Assembly: GCA_036397975.1 (NCBI GenBank)
Contig: DASWHW010000056.1
Location: forward strand, 766-64,765
Direction of reading: 5' to 3'
DNA length: 64,000 nt
From: Bacteroidota bacterium
Lineage (GTDB): Bacteria > Bacteroidota > Ignavibacteria > UBA10030 > UBA6906
How positions within the stretch are numbered: position 1 is the stretch's first letter; each line of letters opens with the position of its first letter. Made by a program: the position numbers and the translations under genes. The notes below the pieces were generated by a model. The model made no database searches, had not been told where the DNA came from, and saw only the letters and a list, made by a program, of their open reading frames with translations. Below are positions 15,125-63,927 of the stretch, piece by piece.

Positions 15125-15155
15125 TTGACTTTTCCTGAGCAATTGAGTAGATTTG
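15125..15155 (+). promoter_or_regulatory. Promoter of the GAF-GGDEF gene
   Basis: TTGACT-17 bp-TAGATTTG (TAnnTTTG-type). Confidence 0.6.
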
Positions 15156-15220
15156 AAACGTTTATTGATTGCCTTACTCTAAGTACATGGCAAGAAAAGA
15201 CCGATGGTGGCAGCCACTCG

Positions 15221-17125
15221 ATGGTACAATTTTTCACAAAAGCAGCTCGCGATCCCGGACGTACCATCCTGATTCTCGTTTGTATTGCACTCACCATCGG
15301 CTTTTTTTATTGGTCAGCAATCGGCAAGGTCATCAGTGCCCTGATCATTCTCTTTGCGGTCGGCGTTCTGGTCTGGCGTGAAAGGAAAAATCTGCAGCGG
15401 CACACACTGTTTTCGAAAGCGGAAATGTATTCACATCCCCCCGAAGGCAATATGAAAAAACTGCTCTTTGATGATTACCAATCACCATCTGGTGGCAAGT
15501 ATATCGTAAAAGAGGTACAAGAGAGCGAGGTTACAGTCCCGTCGACGAAATCGGTGCAATCAGTGCCGGCGGTTCGTCTAGAAGATATTGCTGAGTTCAG
15601 TATATCTGATTTTTTTGATCTCGACTCGGATGTTTTTCAGGATGAAGTTGAGCCAAAAAATGAATTCAATTTCCTCATGCGAAAAGTGCTCCACGCGCTC
15701 AAGGATATGGTATTCGCCCATGCCGCAATGTTCTTTTGGGTGAACAAGGAAAAAGGGGAGATTGTGTTGGAGTCGCGTGCGACAGAAAGTTCAAATGTTG
15801 TTTCGGGCAAACGTTTTCCTATCGAAAACGATGTCGTCAGTCAGGTGGCTCTGAGTGGTAAGCCGGTCTATCTCGGGCGTATTGATCCCTCATCGGAGAA
15901 GGATCTCTTGGTCTACTATGAATCACCCGAGTATGTGAAATCGGTGGTTGGAGTTCCCGTTTTCTACGGAAGCGGCAAAGAGGAAGTTTCTCCCGTCGGC
16001 GTTATTGTTGCAGACAGCAAGGCGGAGGATGCTTTTGGATTCGAGACGGTAAGCATTCTGGGAAATTTCACGAAGCTTGTCTCTGCTCTCATCCAGAGTT
16101 ACACGAAAAAGTATGATCTTCTCCTTGATTCCGAGCTGCTCTCTTCTGTAAGAAGAATGTCCGATCGGATCAAGTCGGACCCTCATGAAGCGACGGTGTT
16201 GCAGTCCTTGATTGATGAGGCAAACCGCCTTCTCAATTGGGACACTTGCACGGTGACGATGTACAGTGATGAATTTCAGGGGTGGACCGTTCAGCGGGTC
16301 ATTCAGAAGACTGATGACCCCTGTGTTGCGTCGGGTCATCCGGTGAGTTTTGATTCATGTGTGGTTGGTGAGACGATCAGGACGAACACGGTGAAGGTCA
16401 TTGCAAACCTTCAGGAAGAACGGACCTGTCGATATTCGCCAGAGGAGCCTCCGGTGAACGGAGGGTCATTCCTTTGTGTTCCCATTAGCTCGATTAATCG
16501 CTGCTACGGAGCCGTAGCACTTGAAAGTCAGAACCCGGGAAATTTTTCGGGGACAGAAGTTGAGACGTTGTTCCGCCTCGTGGAAAGTGCCTCAGCCTTG
16601 CTCGAGGTTATTTACATGAATGACATAGTGAAGGATTATGTCATTGTTGATCGGCTCACCGGTTCTTTCACGAAGAAGAACTTCTTGAAGAAAGTAGAAG
16701 AAGAAGTTCAGCGAGCGGAGGATTTCGGCACTGACCTTGCCCTTGTTTCTCTTGCAGTGGACAATGTTGAAGAACATATCCATCGATATGGGAAAGAAGG
16801 ATTTGATTCTATCCTTCATCAGATTGCGAAAGTTGTCCGGGCAAATATCCGTCCCTATGATATTATTGGCAGGCAGGAATCCCATTGCCTGGGCGTCCTT
16901 TTTGTGAACACCCCCGCGGGAGATGCCTATGTATGGGCGGAAAAAGTGAGAAAAATGATCGCCTCTCACGTGATCGAAGTAGCCGGGAGAAGCTTCTCGG
17001 TTACGGTGAGTGTCGGCGTGTGTGGTCTCATAGATGGAATGAGGAAAGATGACCTTCTGGAAGGCACGGCACAGGTGTTGCACACAGCAATCGAAAACGG
17101 CGGGAATCTCGTCCGGGTATATTAA
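15221..17125 (+). CDS. Membrane-anchored GAF-GAF-GGDEF(degenerate) protein
   Basis: Two N-terminal TM helices, two GAF-like domains (KSVVGVPV, SFLCVPI), C-terminal DRLTG...RPYDIIGRQESHCL...VTVSVGV. Confidence 0.85.
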   Translation: MVQFFTKAARDPGRTILILVCIALTIGFFYWSAIGKVISALIILFAVGVLVWRERKNLQRHTLFSKAEMYSHPPEGNMKKLLFDDYQSPSGGKYIVKEVQESEVTVPSTKSVQSVPAVRLEDIAEFSISDFFDLDSDVFQDEVEPKNEFNFLMRKVLHALKDMVFAHAAMFFWVNKEKGEIVLESRATESSNVVSGKRFPIENDVVSQVALSGKPVYLGRIDPSSEKDLLVYYESPEYVKSVVGVPVFYGSGKEEVSPVGVIVADSKAEDAFGFETVSILGNFTKLVSALIQSYTKKYDLLLDSELLSSVRRMSDRIKSDPHEATVLQSLIDEANRLLNWDTCTVTMYSDEFQGWTVQRVIQKTDDPCVASGHPVSFDSCVVGETIRTNTVKVIANLQEERTCRYSPEEPPVNGGSFLCVPISSINRCYGAVALESQNPGNFSGTEVETLFRLVESASALLEVIYMNDIVKDYVIVDRLTGSFTKKNFLKKVEEEVQRAEDFGTDLALVSLAVDNVEEHIHRYGKEGFDSILHQIAKVVRANIRPYDIIGRQESHCLGVLFVNTPAGDAYVWAEKVRKMIASHVIEVAGRSFSVTVSVGVCGLIDGMRKDDLLEGTAQVLHTAIENGGNLVRVY

Positions 17126-17153
17126 TATTCATTCATTAACGGATTTATAGATC

Positions 17154-17348
17154 ATGGCAAAGCAGCAATCGTTTCAGGACAAAGCAACCAAAGCAGCGTC
17201 GATGAAGGGTTCGAAGTGCGAGAAGTGCGGAACTGTTTACCAACCGCTTCTGCTGGTTACCTCTGAACAGTCAAAGTCGACGAGCTGGAAATTTAACGAG
17301 CGCAGGGTGTTGGTCTGCAAGTGCAATGAGAAGCAGGTGTACGCCTGA
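17154..17348 (+). CDS. Small basic Cys4 (Zn-ribbon-like) protein, candidate bL38/DUF4295-like ribosomal protein
   Basis: MAKQQSFQDK...CEKC...WKFNERRVLVCKC; followed by a terminator. Confidence 0.75.
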   Translation: MAKQQSFQDKATKAASMKGSKCEKCGTVYQPLLLVTSEQSKSTSWKFNERRVLVCKCNEKQVYA

Positions 17349-17410
17349 CAAAGGTGAACTTTGTTTCGCTTCGTTCGTATAAGCACGTGGTATGCCACGA
17401 AAAATTATTG

Positions 17411-17438
17411 GAGGAGCTTGATCGAAGCTCCTCTTTTT
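17411..17438 (+). terminator. Intrinsic terminator
   Basis: GAGGAGCTT-GATCG-AAGCTCCTC followed by TTTTT. Confidence 0.85.
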
Positions 17439-17460
17439 GTAGGACAATTCGCACTTCCTG

Positions 17461-17736
17461 ATGAAAAAACCGAGCATGGAGTTTGAGGCGTATTTGGGAC
17501 AGAATGGAGAAGTGGCTGTCCCGAAAACGGTGTTGGAGCAACTCAAGGGGAAAAATCGCCGGGTTCGCGTGCGAATCACTGATGCTGAACTCTCTGATCG
17601 ACTTCGAACCAAGGGAGTGGAGGAAGAAGAGATCGATCGAATTGCCTCGCTGCAGATGGAGTCCCGTTCACAGGTGATCGCATTTCTTCTCTCTGAAGGG
17701 CAGCTTCGTGGTGTGCGAAAGAGGAATCGTCGTTGA
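17461..17736 (+). CDS. AbrB/MazE-like swapped-hairpin protein (antitoxin-like)
   Basis: MEFEAYLGQNGEVAVPKTVLEQL...RVRVRI N-terminus, acidic helical C-terminus; overlaps the next gene by 4 bp. Confidence 0.6.
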   Translation: MKKPSMEFEAYLGQNGEVAVPKTVLEQLKGKNRRVRVRITDAELSDRLRTKGVEEEEIDRIASLQMESRSQVIAFLLSEGQLRGVRKRNRR

Positions 17737-18170
17737 TCGTGCCGAAGCTTGTGATTCATACAGATGTCCTGAGAGATCATCTGTATGGAAGTCGATCACC
17801 ATCGATCTTGCGAATTGCGCAATCAAAATTTTTCTGTTACACAACGGTGTTTCAGGCGATTGATTTGTTTGCGGAAGCCACAACAGCGATTGAACGCGAG
17901 GCAATGCAAAACTCGATGGCGACACTGAAACTGTTGGGCATGAACGCCAAGAACGCATGGGAATACGGAAGGCTTCTGAAAGCCAATGAGCAACGGCGGG
18001 AATTATATGTTATGGCGGCCGGCCTTTGCATTGAATCGCGATTGCCCTTGTTGACAAATCAAGGAGGTGTGTTCAAAGGAATGAAGAATCTTCAACTTGT
18101 TCCTGCTTCCCTGATTGCGAGAGAAGAATCCGCAAAGAAAATTTTGAATGTAGCACGAAGGAAAAAATGA
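17733..18170 (+). CDS. PIN-domain (VapC-like) protein with a degenerate active site
   Basis: LVIHTDVLRDHL, TTVFQAIDLF, YVMAAGLCIESRLPLLTN pattern of the PIN fold; TTG start. Confidence 0.75.
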   Translation: MIVPKLVIHTDVLRDHLYGSRSPSILRIAQSKFFCYTTVFQAIDLFAEATTAIEREAMQNSMATLKLLGMNAKNAWEYGRLLKANEQRRELYVMAAGLCIESRLPLLTNQGGVFKGMKNLQLVPASLIAREESAKKILNVARRKK

Positions 18171-18436
18171 TACTCGGCAAAGTGGTCGGTACGGTGTGGG
18201 CAACGCGGAAGGACGAAGAGCTTGTGGGAATGAGTTTCCAAATAGTGAAGCACTTGGACCTCAACTACAAACTGAAGGATACGTTTGTCGTTGCGGTCGA
18301 TACTGTCCAGGCGGGCGTCGGTGACGTGGTACTGATGTGTACCGGTAGTTCTGCGAGGCAAACGACGCTCACAAAAAACAAGCCGGTGGATGCCGTCATC
18401 ATGGCTGTTGTTGACAAGATCGATATAGCGGACTGA
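18167..18436 (+). CDS. EutN/CcmL microcompartment vertex protein (BMC-P), GSSAR type
   Basis: MILGKVVGTVWATRK, AVDTVQAGVGDVVL, GSSAR, PVDAVIMAVVD. Confidence 0.93.
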   Translation: MILGKVVGTVWATRKDEELVGMSFQIVKHLDLNYKLKDTFVVAVDTVQAGVGDVVLMCTGSSARQTTLTKNKPVDAVIMAVVDKIDIAD

Positions 18437-18705
18437 TGTTCCTTGCAAGGGTTATAGGGACTGTCTGGGCGACTCGAAAAAACGAGTTTTTGCAGTCGCT
18501 CAAGATGCAGTTTATTCAACCGATGAATGCCAATCGAGAAAAAGTTGGCGATCCATTGGTTGCGATAGACACGGTTGGCGCAGGGGTTGGAGAGACGGTC
18601 ATGTACATTACTGCCCGCGAGGCTGTGATTCCTTTGCCGGTGGAAATGGCACCGGTCGATGCCAGCATTGTCGGCATCGTGGAGAAAATTGATTTGGAAG
18701 AGTAG
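18436..18705 (+). CDS. Second EutN/CcmL vertex protein (BMC-P), AREA variant
   Basis: MFLARVIGTVWATRK, AIDTVGAGVGE, TAREA, PVDASIVGIVE. Confidence 0.93.
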   Translation: MFLARVIGTVWATRKNEFLQSLKMQFIQPMNANREKVGDPLVAIDTVGAGVGETVMYITAREAVIPLPVEMAPVDASIVGIVEKIDLEE

Positions 18706-18777
18706 TGACGACCGCGCCCAGGATGGAACCGCGCGATGTCGTTCGCAGTTAATACAGAACGCTAGATGGAGTAAAGA

Positions 18778-19632
18778 GTGAAAAGTACCAAGCAATATAC
18801 AAGCCGTGAGAGCCAGTCTCTTGATACCTACCTTCAGGAAATCGGGAAGGTAGACCTTCTCAAGCCGGAGGAGGAGATTGATCTGGCGAAACGGATTAAG
18901 AAGGGAGACCAGCTTGCGCTGGAAAAGCTCACGAAGGCGAACCTTCGTTTTGTGGTGAGCGTGGCGAAACAATACCAGAACCAGGGTCTCTCGCTGGGCG
19001 ATCTCATCAACGAGGGGAACCTGGGTCTGATCAAGGCCGCGAAGCGTTTTGATGAGACACGCGGCTTCAAGTTTATTTCATACGCGGTGTGGTGGATCCG
19101 GCAGTCAATCTTGCAAGCGCTCGCGGAACAGTCCCGCATTGTGCGTCTTCCTCTCAACCGCGTCGGTGCTCTGAACAAAATCGGCAAGGCCTTCAGCTCG
19201 CTAGAACAGGAGTTTGAACGTGAGCCAAGTGCAAGCGAACTTGCGGAAGAGCTCGACATGTCATTGTATGACATCAACCTTGCACTCAAGAATTCTGGAC
19301 GCCATATTTCCATGGATGCGCCGTTCGTGCAGGGCGAAGAGAGTCGTCTTCTTGATGTCATCCAGGACGAGCGTCAACCATCTCCTGATTCGGAGTTGAT
19401 GAAGGAATCACTAAGTGGAGACGTCGAACGGGCTCTGGCAACGCTGACAGAGCGTGAGGCCGAAGTAGTTCGCCTTTATTTCGGTCTGGGGCGTGAGCAC
19501 TCACTCACACTTGAGGAGATTGGAGAAAGCTTCCGGCTCACACGTGAGCGTGTACGTCAGATCAAAGAAAAGGCGGTCCGTCGCTTGCGCCATGCGTCAC
19601 GCAGCAAACAATTGCGAGCGTATCTTGGCTGA
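18778..19632 (+). CDS. sigA: Primary RNA polymerase sigma factor, short Bacteroidota/Chlorobi type lacking region 1.1
   Basis: [52 protein letters not shown]; GTG start. Confidence 0.9.
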
Positions 19633-63349: not shown

Positions 63350-63927
63350 AGCGGAAGGGTGATCAGGAGGAAGAACAACGGGCGAGTGGTTTCTCGATGA
63401 AATGGATTGCTCTTGGAATATTAGTCCTCATTGGCGGAGGTGCATTGATGGTTCTCCTGCGTTCTGATAATCAAAAAGGGAGTTCTGCTTCGACGGACAC
63501 TCAGAGAGAAACGTACGGATTCAGGAAGGACGGAGAGCTTCGGTTTGAATCTTCTTCCGGAAAACATCTTGCCACCATCGCAATTGAAATCGCCGAGGAT
63601 GAAGCCGCGATTACCATAGGCCTCATGAACAGGCGTGTCGTTCCCGAGCTTCACGGAATGCTCTTCATTTTCCCAGATGAAGAACTCCGCTCCTTCTGGA
63701 TGCGCAACACCTACGCATCACTTGATATTATCTTCGTCAATAGCAATCTTGAGATAGTTGCATTACATCCCTACACTCAGCCATTGTCGGATACTTCGTA
63801 TCCATCGACGAGACCGGCGCAATATGTTGTTGAGGTTGCTGCAGGTTTCGCGGAGAAGCATGGTGTTCAGGCGGGCGATGGAATTGTGTGGACTCGGAAT
63901 CAAGTGAATAGAAACAGGCGTCTTTGA
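63346..63927 (+). CDS. DUF192-family protein with N-terminal TM anchor
   Basis: GLMNR, GMLFIF...FWMRNT...LDIIF, YVVEVAAG. Confidence 0.9.
   Translation: MKRKGDQEEEQRASGFSMKWIALGILVLIGGGALMVLLRSDNQKGSSASTDTQRETYGFRKDGELRFESSSGKHLATIAIEIAEDEAAITIGLMNRRVVPELHGMLFIFPDEELRSFWMRNTYASLDIIFVNSNLEIVALHPYTQPLSDTSYPSTRPAQYVVEVAAGFAEKHGVQAGDGIVWTRNQVNRNRRL

What the first reader, a model, noticed from the sequence alone, without database searches (positions are those of the whole stretch)
17461..18705. Toxin-antitoxin-like pair translationally coupled to two microcompartment vertex genes
Seen: four genes joined by overlapping stop/start codons (17733-17736, 18167-18170, 18436), starting just after a strong terminator (17411-17438): AbrB-like gene, PIN domain, EutN-1, EutN-2, then sigA. 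The PIN protein has lost most of the acidic catalytic residues known for VapC: the beta1 Asp is His (IHTDVL), the D-x-L-I-A-A Asp is Leu (LYVMAA), and the last D/N is Gln (TNQ). Inference: this is probably not a working toxin but an RNA-binding or scaffold module co-expressed with BMC pentamers. I do not recognise this combination; it could be a regulatory or cargo module of a dispersed microcompartment system.
Basis: partly seen in the sequence, partly recalled or inferred. Interest (0 to 1): 0.8.

Follow-up and report, generated by a model that had tools for sequence, protein, structure and literature searches.

The report
VapBC-like pair and microcompartment pentamers before sigA
A vertically inherited toxin-antitoxin-like gene pair with a degenerate nuclease site sits just upstream of the main sigma-factor gene in Ignavibacteria, and two very highly conserved microcompartment vertex genes were inserted between them once and later lost at least seven times, so the pair belongs with the sigma gene rather than with the microcompartment.

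Summary
The four tightly packed genes are real. ORF1 (17461-17736) has an AbrB/MazE-type N-terminal domain. ORF2 (17733-18170) has a VapC-type PIN fold. Two genuine BMC-P (EutN) genes and a primary-type sigma-70 gene follow.

The window's PIN copy keeps only D11 and D44. The positions of the canonical Asp/Asp/Asp are H9, Y92 and Q110. It still evolves under purifying selection (dN/dS about 0.1).

The order ORF1-ORF2-[EutN-EutN]-sigma holds in 80 species-level Ignavibacteria-type genomes. ORF1-ORF2 is present in all of them. The EutN pair is present in 55 of 76 scorable loci.

More distant outgroup contigs carry ORF1-like/PIN directly before the orthologous sigma, with no EutN. One of these PINs has the full canonical tetrad. 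An outgroup-rooted tree implies one EutN insertion and at least seven losses.

So the VapBC-derived pair is a fixed, ancient part of the sigma operon, not a microcompartment module. The EutN pair matches the known FRAG1 dispersed microcompartment type of Ignavibacteria (Sutter 2021). It is conserved almost as tightly as sigma.

The parts
17154..17348 (+). s65: a 64-aa CxxC...CxC zinc-ribbon protein. It is the conserved upstream neighbour of the pair.
   Evidence: Present upstream in nearly all loci, median 64% identity. It is 48-52% identical in outgroup contigs L089 and L090, where it again precedes ORF1-like/PIN. It has no significant Pfam or NCBIfam hit.
17410..17444 (+). Intrinsic-terminator-like hairpin (10-bp stem, GATC-centred loop) followed by a T-run, 17-27 nt before the ORF1 start.
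   Evidence: Terminator scan. A similar hairpin plus T-run follows s65 in L005, L009, L010 and L017, with a different stem sequence. There is no Rfam match.
17461..17736 (+). ORF1, a VapB-like protein: an AbrB/MazE-type swapped-hairpin N-terminal half, a conserved three-helix segment (VxEEEIxRIAxLQxExRxQVxxFLxSEG) and a disordered basic tail.
   Evidence: Profile hit to 2glw at E 4e-5 and to AbrB/SpoVT at about 0.3. PF04014 is hit in 12 of 77 members. AF2 pLDDT is 70.8, with helices at 42-50, 55-65 and 69-78. It is present in every locus. The 4-nt overlap with ORF2 is seen in about 65 of 75 loci. dN/dS is 0.10-0.19.
17733..18170 (+). ORF2, a VapC-type PIN-fold protein with a degenerate active site (H9, T10, D11, T37, T38, D44, Y92, T108, Q110, V113).
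   Evidence: AF2 pLDDT 94.4. All Foldseek top 50 hits are VapC/PIN. PF01850 is hit in 17 of 31 relatives but not by this copy. dN/dS is 0.10-0.17.
18167..18436 (+). EutN-1: a BMC-P (pentameric vertex) shell protein of 89 aa.
   Evidence: PF03319 at 2.6e-28. Full-length match to the Haliangium ochraceum shell pentamer 5v74 at E 1.5e-21. Median identity across loci is 85%. dN/dS is 0.004-0.018.
18436..18705 (+). EutN-2: a second BMC-P paralog of 89 aa, 40% identical to EutN-1.
   Evidence: PF03319 at 9.6e-26. Match to 5v74 at E 4.7e-11. 40% identity to EutN-1. Median identity across loci is 75%. dN/dS is 0.008-0.042.
18778..19632 (+). Primary-type sigma-70 factor of 284 aa, with regions 1.2, 2, 3 and 4 and no region 1.1.
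   Evidence: Pfam regions found. The best NCBIfam hits are RpoD models, below their full-length cut-offs. Median identity is 89%. dN/dS is 0.001-0.005. It is 80% identical in outgroups L090 and L091. It directly follows ORF2 (3-90 nt gap) wherever EutN is absent.

Best explanation
ORF1-ORF2 is a VapBC-derived pair: an AbrB-type DNA-binding protein plus a PIN-fold protein. It is not a mobile toxin-antitoxin cassette. It is a fixed, vertically inherited component of the operon that ends in the primary sigma-factor gene, in Ignavibacteria and in more distant relatives.

The ancestral PIN had a canonical acidic site. Within Ignavibacteria the site degenerated, and the window's lineage keeps only D11 and D44. 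Here the PIN protein most likely works without Mg-dependent RNA cleavage. By analogy with VapBC and FitAB complexes, I infer that an ORF1 dimer binds DNA through its swapped-hairpin domain, that ORF2 dimers bound to ORF1's conserved C-terminal helices act as a non-catalytic co-regulator, and that the complex tunes transcription of its own operon, and therefore of the genes downstream of it.

The two EutN genes are BMC-P vertex proteins of the known FRAG1 dispersed microcompartment type. They were inserted once between the PIN gene and sigA in the Ignavibacteria ancestor. Since then they have been kept under very strong constraint or lost entirely. They are probably co-transcribed with the pair and with sigA, but the pair does not depend on them.

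Shown: the gene identities, folds, residue states, synteny, gain/loss pattern and selection. Inferred: complex formation, DNA binding, autoregulation, co-transcription and loss of nuclease activity.
For: - Folds and families.
- Synteny in 80 genomes, with ORF1-ORF2 always present and a conserved 4-nt overlap.
- The EutN pair is present in 55 loci and absent in 21.
- Outgroups L090 and L091 carry ORF1-like/PIN then the orthologous sigma (80% identity) with no EutN, and L090's PIN has D9/E44/D92/D110.
- The rooted tree gives 1 gain plus 7 losses.
- Where EutN is absent, the ORF2-sigma gap is as small as 3 nt. In many genomes the EutN2-sigma gap is 14-17 nt. Both leave no room for a separate promoter.
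- Purifying selection acts on the degenerate copies.
- Core invariants are kept without EutN.
- No member of the family has all four canonical acidic residues, and position 110 is Arg in 47 of 79.
- FRAG1 is described as a shell-only dispersed type most prominent in Ignavibacteria.
Against: - There is no transcript evidence. The only RNA run found held just a relative's sigma gene.
- The hairpin plus T-run lies only about 20 nt before ORF1, so where the window's unit is transcribed from is unclear.
- No operator was identified.
- ORF1's AbrB assignment rests on remote homology (E 4e-5), and its monomer model is only moderately confident (pLDDT 70.8).
- T10, D11, T37/T38 and E44 around the old active site remain nearly invariant. 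A modified catalytic or ligand-binding pocket therefore cannot be excluded.
- Deep synteny alone could keep these genes adjacent without any shared function.
Confidence: 0.6

Rival explanations
1. The degenerate PIN/AbrB pair is a dedicated regulatory, scaffold or cargo module of the dispersed (FRAG1) microcompartment, co-expressed with and acting on the BMC-P pentamers.
For: Tight packing or overlap of ORF2 with EutN-1 is seen in the window and about 12 other loci, and gaps are mostly under 65 nt elsewhere. The order is conserved in 55 genomes. The His-for-Asp change at position 9 is commoner in EutN+ loci (32 H, 20 D) than in EutN- loci (3 H, 17 D). ORF2 has a C-terminal amphipathic helix. 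FRAG1 has no known cargo or encapsulation peptides.
Against: The pair persists with intact core residues in all 21 EutN-less loci. It also occurs in outgroups that never had EutN at this site. The EutN pair was lost at least 7 times without loss of the pair. The C-terminal helix is absent in several EutN+ genomes and present in EutN- ones. The H/D split largely follows the two major clades. ORF1/ORF2 evolve about 10 times faster than the EutN genes, which is not what tight co-complex partners would show.
Confidence: 0.12
2. It is a working type II VapBC toxin-antitoxin system with a non-canonical active site (for example D11, D/E44, T37/T38, H9). It happens to be fixed at this locus, and it arrests growth by cleaving a specific RNA when ORF1 is degraded.
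For: It has classical antitoxin-then-toxin order with a 4-nt overlap. It has an AbrB-type antitoxin domain and a VapC fold. D11, E44 and T37/T38 are nearly invariant. Some family members keep the D9-E44-D92 triad (L001, L055, L058, L061), and outgroup L090 has the full tetrad.
Against: The window's copy has His and Tyr at the positions whose substitution gives the non-toxic Shigella VapC mutants (D7A, D7N, D98N) listed. An Arg occupies the fourth acidic position in most of the family. Strict vertical inheritance at one locus across a class is unlike typical VapBC modules. There is no match to any defence-system model.
Confidence: 0.15
3. The neighbours are unrelated in function and adjacent only by descent. 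The block GGDEF-s65-(deoB)-ORF1-ORF2-(EutN x2)-sigma-NlpC-def-fmt is simply frozen synteny. The pair serves neither sigA nor the microcompartment.
For: The whole 10-gene block, including clearly unrelated housekeeping genes (NlpC/P60, def, fmt, NamZ, NDK), is collinear in all genomes. deoB and EutN come and go independently within it (42, 14, 13 and 6 loci for the four presence/absence combinations).
Against: The ORF1-PIN-sigma adjacency survives in outgroups where the PIN is only about 30% identical. Gaps to sigma are as small as 3-17 nt, which implies a shared transcript. There is a parallel in Firmicutes, where a PIN-like protein heads the major sigma operon.
Confidence: 0.13

Closest known systems
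VapBC type II toxin-antitoxin systems with AbrB-type antitoxins (for example Rickettsia felis VapBC2, PDB 3zvk; Shigella/Salmonella VapBC; Neisseria FitAB)
   Same: The gene order is small AbrB-domain protein then PIN protein, with overlapping stop and start codons. The PIN has a VapC-type fold (TM about 0.7 to 3zvk, 6sd6 and 6ifc). The nearest outgroup sequences share the DTD...E...RDxLIAG...TxN/D pattern.
   Different: It is inherited vertically at one chromosomal site across a whole class and beyond, inside the sigma-factor operon. The catalytic Asp residues are replaced in most members (H9, Y92 and Q110 in the window). ORF1 has an unusually well conserved, structured C-terminal segment. 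There is no sign of mobility and no defence-system match.
FRAG1 fragmented bacterial microcompartment loci (Sutter et al. 2021, PMC8217296)
   Same: Shell-only BMC-P genes lie far from any BMC-H or enzyme gene. [quoted passage not shown] FRAG1 green-clade pentamers sit next to the HO/SPU3 pentamers in the catalog's tree, and EutN-1's best solved match is the HO pentamer.
   Different: The catalog does not mention the PIN, AbrB or sigma neighbours. New here are the fixed position of the pair between a VapBC-like pair and sigA, its single origin with repeated loss, and its sigma-like sequence constraint.
Firmicutes major sigma (MMS) operon yqxD(P23)-dnaG-sigA, whose first gene is the PIN-like DUF188 protein (Matelska et al. 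2017, PMC5499597)
   Same: A PIN-superfamily protein is encoded at the head of the operon that carries the principal sigma factor.
   Different: YqxD belongs to the NYN/DUF188 group and has five conserved acidic residues. It has no AbrB-type partner, and dnaG lies between it and sigA. The two arrangements are not homologous.
Catalytically inactive PIN domains (for example yeast Utp23, and the predicted inactive members of VapC-like clusters in Matelska et al. 2017)
   Same: The PIN fold is retained and under selection while acidic active-site residues are lost. An RNA-binding or structural role has been proposed for such proteins.
   Different: Those are eukaryotic ribosome-biogenesis factors or uncharacterised proteins. 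None is described as paired with an AbrB protein in a sigma operon or next to BMC genes.
Type I HO-BMC satellite locus with two BMC-P genes
   Same: It is a satellite locus holding a pair of BMC-P paralogs away from the main shell locus.
   Different: The HO satellite carries an aldolase. Here the neighbours are a VapBC-like pair and sigA, and no enzyme is consistently linked, since deoB presence is independent of EutN.

Membership tests
PIN domain (PF01850), VapC-like | PIN/VapC alpha/beta/alpha fold | tested here: met
   The AF2 model has pLDDT 94.4. All of the Foldseek PDB top 50 are VapC/PIN structures, best E 8.7e-6, TM 0.69-0.78.
PIN domain (PF01850), VapC-like | Sequence match to the family HMM above its gathering score | tested here: not met
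   The window's ORF2 has no Pfam or NCBIfam hit. Orthologs do pass: P0058 37.3, P0044 30.5 and P0059 29.4 bits against 23.6, and 17 of 31 match at E <= 0.1.
PIN domain (PF01850), VapC-like | Three strictly conserved acidic residues (beta1 Asp, helix Glu, third Asp) plus a fourth, less conserved acidic residue | tested here: not met
   The window has H9, D44, Y92, Q110 and V113. Across the family, position 9 is D in 38 and H in 37, E44 is kept in 75 of 79, position 92 is D in only 21 of 79, and position 110 is R in 47 of 79. No member has all four. Outgroup relatives are canonical.
Type II VapBC toxin-antitoxin system | A small antitoxin gene with a DNA-binding domain immediately upstream of, and translationally coupled to, the PIN gene | tested here: met
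   There is a 4-nt overlap in the window and in about 65 of 75 loci. The ORF1 profile hits AbrB-like 2glw at E 4e-5, and PF04014 is hit in 12 of 77 members.
Type II VapBC toxin-antitoxin system | The PIN protein is toxic (RNase) and is neutralised by the antitoxin | not testable with these tools
   This needs expression and RNase assays. The residue pattern argues against canonical activity in this lineage.
BMC-P / EutN_CcmL (PF03319) vertex proteins | A full-length PF03319 domain of about 85-100 aa, related to solved shell pentamers | tested here: met
   PF03319 at 98.8 and 90.6 bits against a cut-off of 25. Full-length alignments to 5v74, 4i7a and CcmL structures.
FRAG1 fragmented BMC (Sutter 2021) | Shell genes dispersed, with no BMC-H or signature enzyme at the locus; taxon Ignavibacteria or relatives | tested here: met
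   No BMC-H was found by tblastn in the 64-kb window or in any of 84 loci. All loci come from Ignavibacteria-type MAGs.
FRAG1 fragmented BMC (Sutter 2021) | A genome-wide inventory of a BMC-P triplet (green/grey/orange clades) plus two BMC-H, one with a long C-terminal extension | not testable with these tools
Colour-clade HMMs were not usable here.
Primary (group 1) sigma-70 factor, Bacteroidota-type short form | Regions 1.2, 2, 3 and 4 present; best matches to RpoD; extreme conservation | tested here: met
   The four Pfam regions are present. RpoD models are the top NCBIfam hits but fall below their full-length cut-offs because region 1.1 and the spacer are missing. Median identity is 89% and dN/dS is 0.001-0.005. 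That it is the only primary sigma of the genome was not tested.

The most novel reading that the evidence does not exclude
The VapBC-derived pair is a dedicated governor of the principal sigma-factor operon in Ignavibacteria and related lineages. It would be an autoregulatory DNA- or RNA-binding complex, originally an RNase, that sets sigA dosage. The FRAG1 vertex-protein pair was captured into this housekeeping operon so that pentamer supply is tied to sigA expression. This would imply that FRAG1 compartments are constitutive organelles rather than substrate-induced ones. A stronger version is that the degenerate PIN protein also interacts physically with the pentamers.
Probability: 0.2. Interest if true: 0.7.

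Novelty: new variant of a known kind. Interest (0 to 1): 0.5.

Why it matters
FRAG-type microcompartments have no known cargo, substrate or regulation. Two of their vertex genes sit in the principal sigma-factor operon, arose once, are as constrained as sigma itself (dN/dS 0.004-0.04), and yet were discarded at least seven times. This gives a concrete handle on the problem: it predicts constitutive expression, and it provides natural presence/absence contrasts among close relatives.

Separately, a toxin-antitoxin-derived pair fixed in front of rpoD across a class and beyond is a clear case of TA domestication, with a visible path from a canonical to a degenerate active site. It parallels the unexplained PIN-like YqxD gene at the head of the Firmicutes sigA operon.

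It also corrects a tempting guilt-by-association inference. The pair's constant partner is sigA, not the shell genes.

Tried and rejected
Whether EutN-less genomes lack BMCs altogether also remains untested.
2. Direct Pfam, NCBIfam and PADLOC scans of the window's ORF1 and ORF2 gave nothing. Family profiles and folds were needed.
3. Transcript evidence: only DNA metagenomes hold the stretch. The single RNA run held only a relative's sigma gene.
4. Encapsulation-peptide idea for ORF2's C-terminal 'S-x-x-E-I-L' helix: rejected, because the helix does not track EutN presence. It also occurs in outgroup PINs that are not next to EutN (P0236).
5. deoB (phosphopentomutase) as a functional clue linking FRAG1 to sugar-phosphate BMCs: deoB and EutN presence at the locus are independent (42, 14, 13 and 6 loci; odds ratio about 1.4), so this is not supported.
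6. The H9-versus-D9 correlation with EutN presence mostly reflects the two major clades, so it was not treated as evidence.
7. A weak EutM-like tblastn hit at 63832-63915 is antisense to a real plus-strand ORF and is spurious.
8. Fold search of the ORF1 model found no significant match. Weak profile similarity of its C-terminal segment to eIF1/SUI1 (E 0.05) and RecX (E 0.001) was judged spurious.
9. Rfam search of 17100-18900 found no known RNA element.
10. Assigning EutN-1 and EutN-2 to Sutter's colour clades from the supplementary tree was not possible without sequences or HMMs.
Full report
**Observation.**
- ORF1 is 17461-17736 (91 aa).
- ORF2 is 17733-18170 (145 aa, TTG start inside TTGA).
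- EutN-1 is 18167-18436 (ATGA overlap).
- EutN-2 is 18436-18705 (TGATG, 1-nt overlap).
- After 72 nt comes a 284-aa sigma-70 gene (18778-19632).

A 10-bp hairpin plus T-run lies at 17410-17434, just after a 64-aa zinc-ribbon ORF (17154-17348). Both EutN genes are strong PF03319 hits. The sigma has regions 1.2, 2, 3 and 4, and RpoD models are its best NCBIfam matches. The window's ORF1 and ORF2 match nothing in Pfam, NCBIfam or PADLOC.

**Identity of ORF2.** It has 78 homologs at 37-83% identity. An AlphaFold model built from their alignment is confident (pLDDT 94.4). All 50 best PDB matches are VapC/PIN proteins (3zvk_B E 8.7e-6, TM about 0.7). Seventeen of 31 homologs hit PF01850, and several are above the gathering score. 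A family profile finds Shigella, Salmonella and Rickettsia VapC at E about 0.1. The family is small: 28 clusters at E <= 1e-30 among 1.84 billion representatives.

**Active site.** Three lines of evidence place the window's residues: Pfam profile coordinates, the model's secondary structure and the HMM alignment to VapC.
- H9 sits at the beta1 Asp.
- D44 sits at the helix Glu.
- Y92 sits at VapC D98.
- Q110 sits at the T-x-D Asp.
- V113 sits at Shigella E119.

Across 79 orthologs the counts are as follows.
- Position 9 is D in 38 and H in 37.
- D11 is kept in 71, and E44 in 75.
- Position 92 is D in only 21.
- Position 110 is R in 47.
- No member has all four canonical acidic residues.

The nearest outgroup VapC-like proteins are canonical (D/E-T-D, E, RDxLIAG, TxN/D), so the site degenerated within this family. 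The degenerate copies are not decaying. Among the window and three close relatives, dN/dS is 0.10-0.17 for ORF2 and 0.10-0.19 for ORF1.

**Identity of ORF1.** A 77-sequence alignment shows three parts: an N-terminal G-x-I-x-VP...K-V-x-VRL segment, a highly conserved V-T-E-E-E-I-E-R-I-A-x-L-Q-L-E-x-R-E-x-V-x-x-F-L-x-S-E-G segment, and a basic tail. Its profile hits the AbrB-like pseudo-dimer 2glw at E 4e-5 and AbrB/SpoVT proteins at about 0.3. Twelve of 77 members hit PF04014. The monomer model is only moderate (pLDDT 70.8, three C-terminal helices) and has no significant fold match.

**Neighbourhood survey.** A scan of one genome per species returned 80 loci, all from Ignavibacteria-type MAGs, including an Ignavibacterium album MAG. 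A tblastn and ORF analysis shows one collinear block everywhere: GAF-GGDEF, s65, [deoB], ORF1, ORF2, [EutN, EutN], sigma, NlpC/P60, def, fmt.
- ORF1-ORF2 is present in every locus. Five tblastn misses were divergent copies found by ORF scanning.
- The 4-nt ORF1/ORF2 overlap is seen in about 65 of 75 loci.
- The EutN pair is present in 55 loci, absent in 21 and unscorable in 3.
- The gene between s65 and ORF1 in 59 of 79 loci is phosphopentomutase (487-514 bits against a cut-off of 256). The window's clade lacks it.
- Where EutN is absent, ORF2 is 3-90 nt from sigma. EutN-2 is often only 14-17 nt from sigma.

**Polarity.** Four outgroup relatives with PINs about 30% identical were examined.
- L090 carries s65 (48% identical), an ORF1-like gene (HMM E 1e-14), a PIN with the full D9/E44/D92/D110 tetrad, and then, after 16 nt, the orthologous sigma (80% identical). 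It has no EutN.
- L091 has ORF1-like, PIN and sigma.
- L089 has s65, ORF1-like and PIN.
- L087 has the pair in an unrelated context.

Rooting a sigma+ORF2 tree with L090 and L091 places every EutN-less ingroup clade inside EutN-bearing clades. Fitch parsimony gives 8 changes, that is one gain and seven losses. ORF2's core invariant residues (R27, C35, Y36, T37, T38, V39, F46, K66, G69, C99, E101, T108) are 100% retained in EutN-less lineages. The pair's linkage to sigma is therefore older than, and independent of, the EutN insertion.

**The EutN pair.** Both genes align full-length to solved shell pentamers, with the Haliangium ochraceum BMC-P 5v74 as the best match. They are 40% identical to each other. 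They are conserved far above their neighbours.

| Gene | Median identity to the window |
|---|---|
| sigma | 89% |
| EutN-1 | 85% |
| EutN-2 | 75% |
| fmt | 60% |
| def | 54% |
| ORF2 | 46% |
| ORF1 | 42% |

dN/dS is 0.004-0.042 for the EutN genes. No BMC-H is present in the window or in any locus. This matches the FRAG1 type of Sutter et al. 2021: shell-only loci at up to six genomic sites, most prominent in Ignavibacteria, with a BMC-P triplet, two BMC-H and no known encapsulation peptides. The paper and its supplements do not mention PIN, toxin-antitoxin or sigma neighbours. No paper in the library links PIN domains with BMC-P.

**Mechanism (inferred).** VapBC and FitAB complexes bind their own promoters through the antitoxin's DNA-binding domain, with the PIN protein acting as co-repressor (established knowledge of the family). 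Substitutions at the first and third Asp give the non-toxic Shigella VapC forms used for crystallography (entries listed). The window's protein carries His and Tyr at those positions. I therefore think the pair now acts as a non-catalytic regulatory complex of the operon that ends in sigA, and that the EutN genes are passengers in that operon. A parallel exists in Firmicutes, where the PIN-like DUF188 protein YqxD/P23 heads the yqxD-dnaG-sigA operon. Predicted inactive PINs are also known.

**Caveats.**
- I found no transcript data for the unit.
- The hairpin so close to ORF1 leaves the window's promoter unresolved.
- Residues around the old active site (T10, D11, T37, T38, E44) stay conserved, so a modified activity cannot be excluded.

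**Verdict.** The PIN is a degenerate VapC. The proposed role as a microcompartment module is not supported, because the pair is a domesticated VapBC in the sigma operon. The EutN pair belongs to the known FRAG1 type but has a previously undescribed fixed position, a single origin and sigma-like constraint. I rate this a new variant of known kinds, of moderate interest.

Noticed in passing
window 17154-17348 (+); L089:222-419; L090:408-602: A 64-65-aa CxxC...CxC zinc-ribbon protein (N-terminus MAKQQSFxDKAxKA) precedes the VapBC-like pair. It is better conserved than the pair itself: median identity is 64%, and it is 48-52% identical in outgroups where the PIN is about 30%. It has no family assignment. 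It may be a third component of the cassette.
   Followed up: partly
L001:4440-5702 and equivalent in 59 of 79 loci; absent from window 17349-17460: Phosphopentomutase (deoB) lies between s65 and ORF1 in most genomes, and its stop overlaps the ORF1 start in some (L001, L003). It is missing in the window's clade and looks fragmented in L006 and L007. Its presence is independent of EutN presence.
   Followed up: partly
window 17355-17385 and 17410-17444: A motif AACTTT-N14-CGTAT(A/T) occurs just after the s65 stop in 8 of 70 loci, about ten-fold over background. It lies upstream of the hairpin plus T-run. If it is a promoter, the 'terminator' would sit in the 5' leader of ORF1 or deoB, like an attenuator. 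There is no Rfam match.
   Followed up: partly
window 18167-18705: The two BMC-P paralogs are conserved almost like the primary sigma factor (85% and 75% median identity; dN/dS 0.004-0.042). This contradicts the other first-stage note, which calls them 'divergent'. Even so, the pair was deleted cleanly at least seven times.
   Followed up: yes
window 17620-17700 (ORF1 residues 53-80): The most conserved part of ORF1 (VxEEEIxRIAxLQxExRxQVxxFLxSEG) gives weak hits to eIF1/SUI1 (E about 0.05) and to the RecX three-helix repeat (E 0.001). These are probably spurious, but the segment is far better conserved than a typical antitoxin C-terminus.
   Followed up: partly
L076 (CALRIY020000028.1): A contig filed under a 'Synechococcus sp. 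UW140' MAG carries the Ignavibacteria-type ORF1-ORF2-sigma-NlpC-def-fmt block. This is most likely binning contamination.
   Followed up: no
window 15125-17125 (+): A 666-aa protein with an N-terminal transmembrane region, GAF and GGDEF domains (a putative diguanylate cyclase) lies directly upstream. It is part of the same collinear block in all genomes.
   Followed up: no
L006:9038-9890 and L051:9034-9886: The sigma gene appears split into two overlapping tblastn pieces in two long-read-derived MAGs. These are probably assembly frameshifts rather than real pseudogenes.
   Followed up: no
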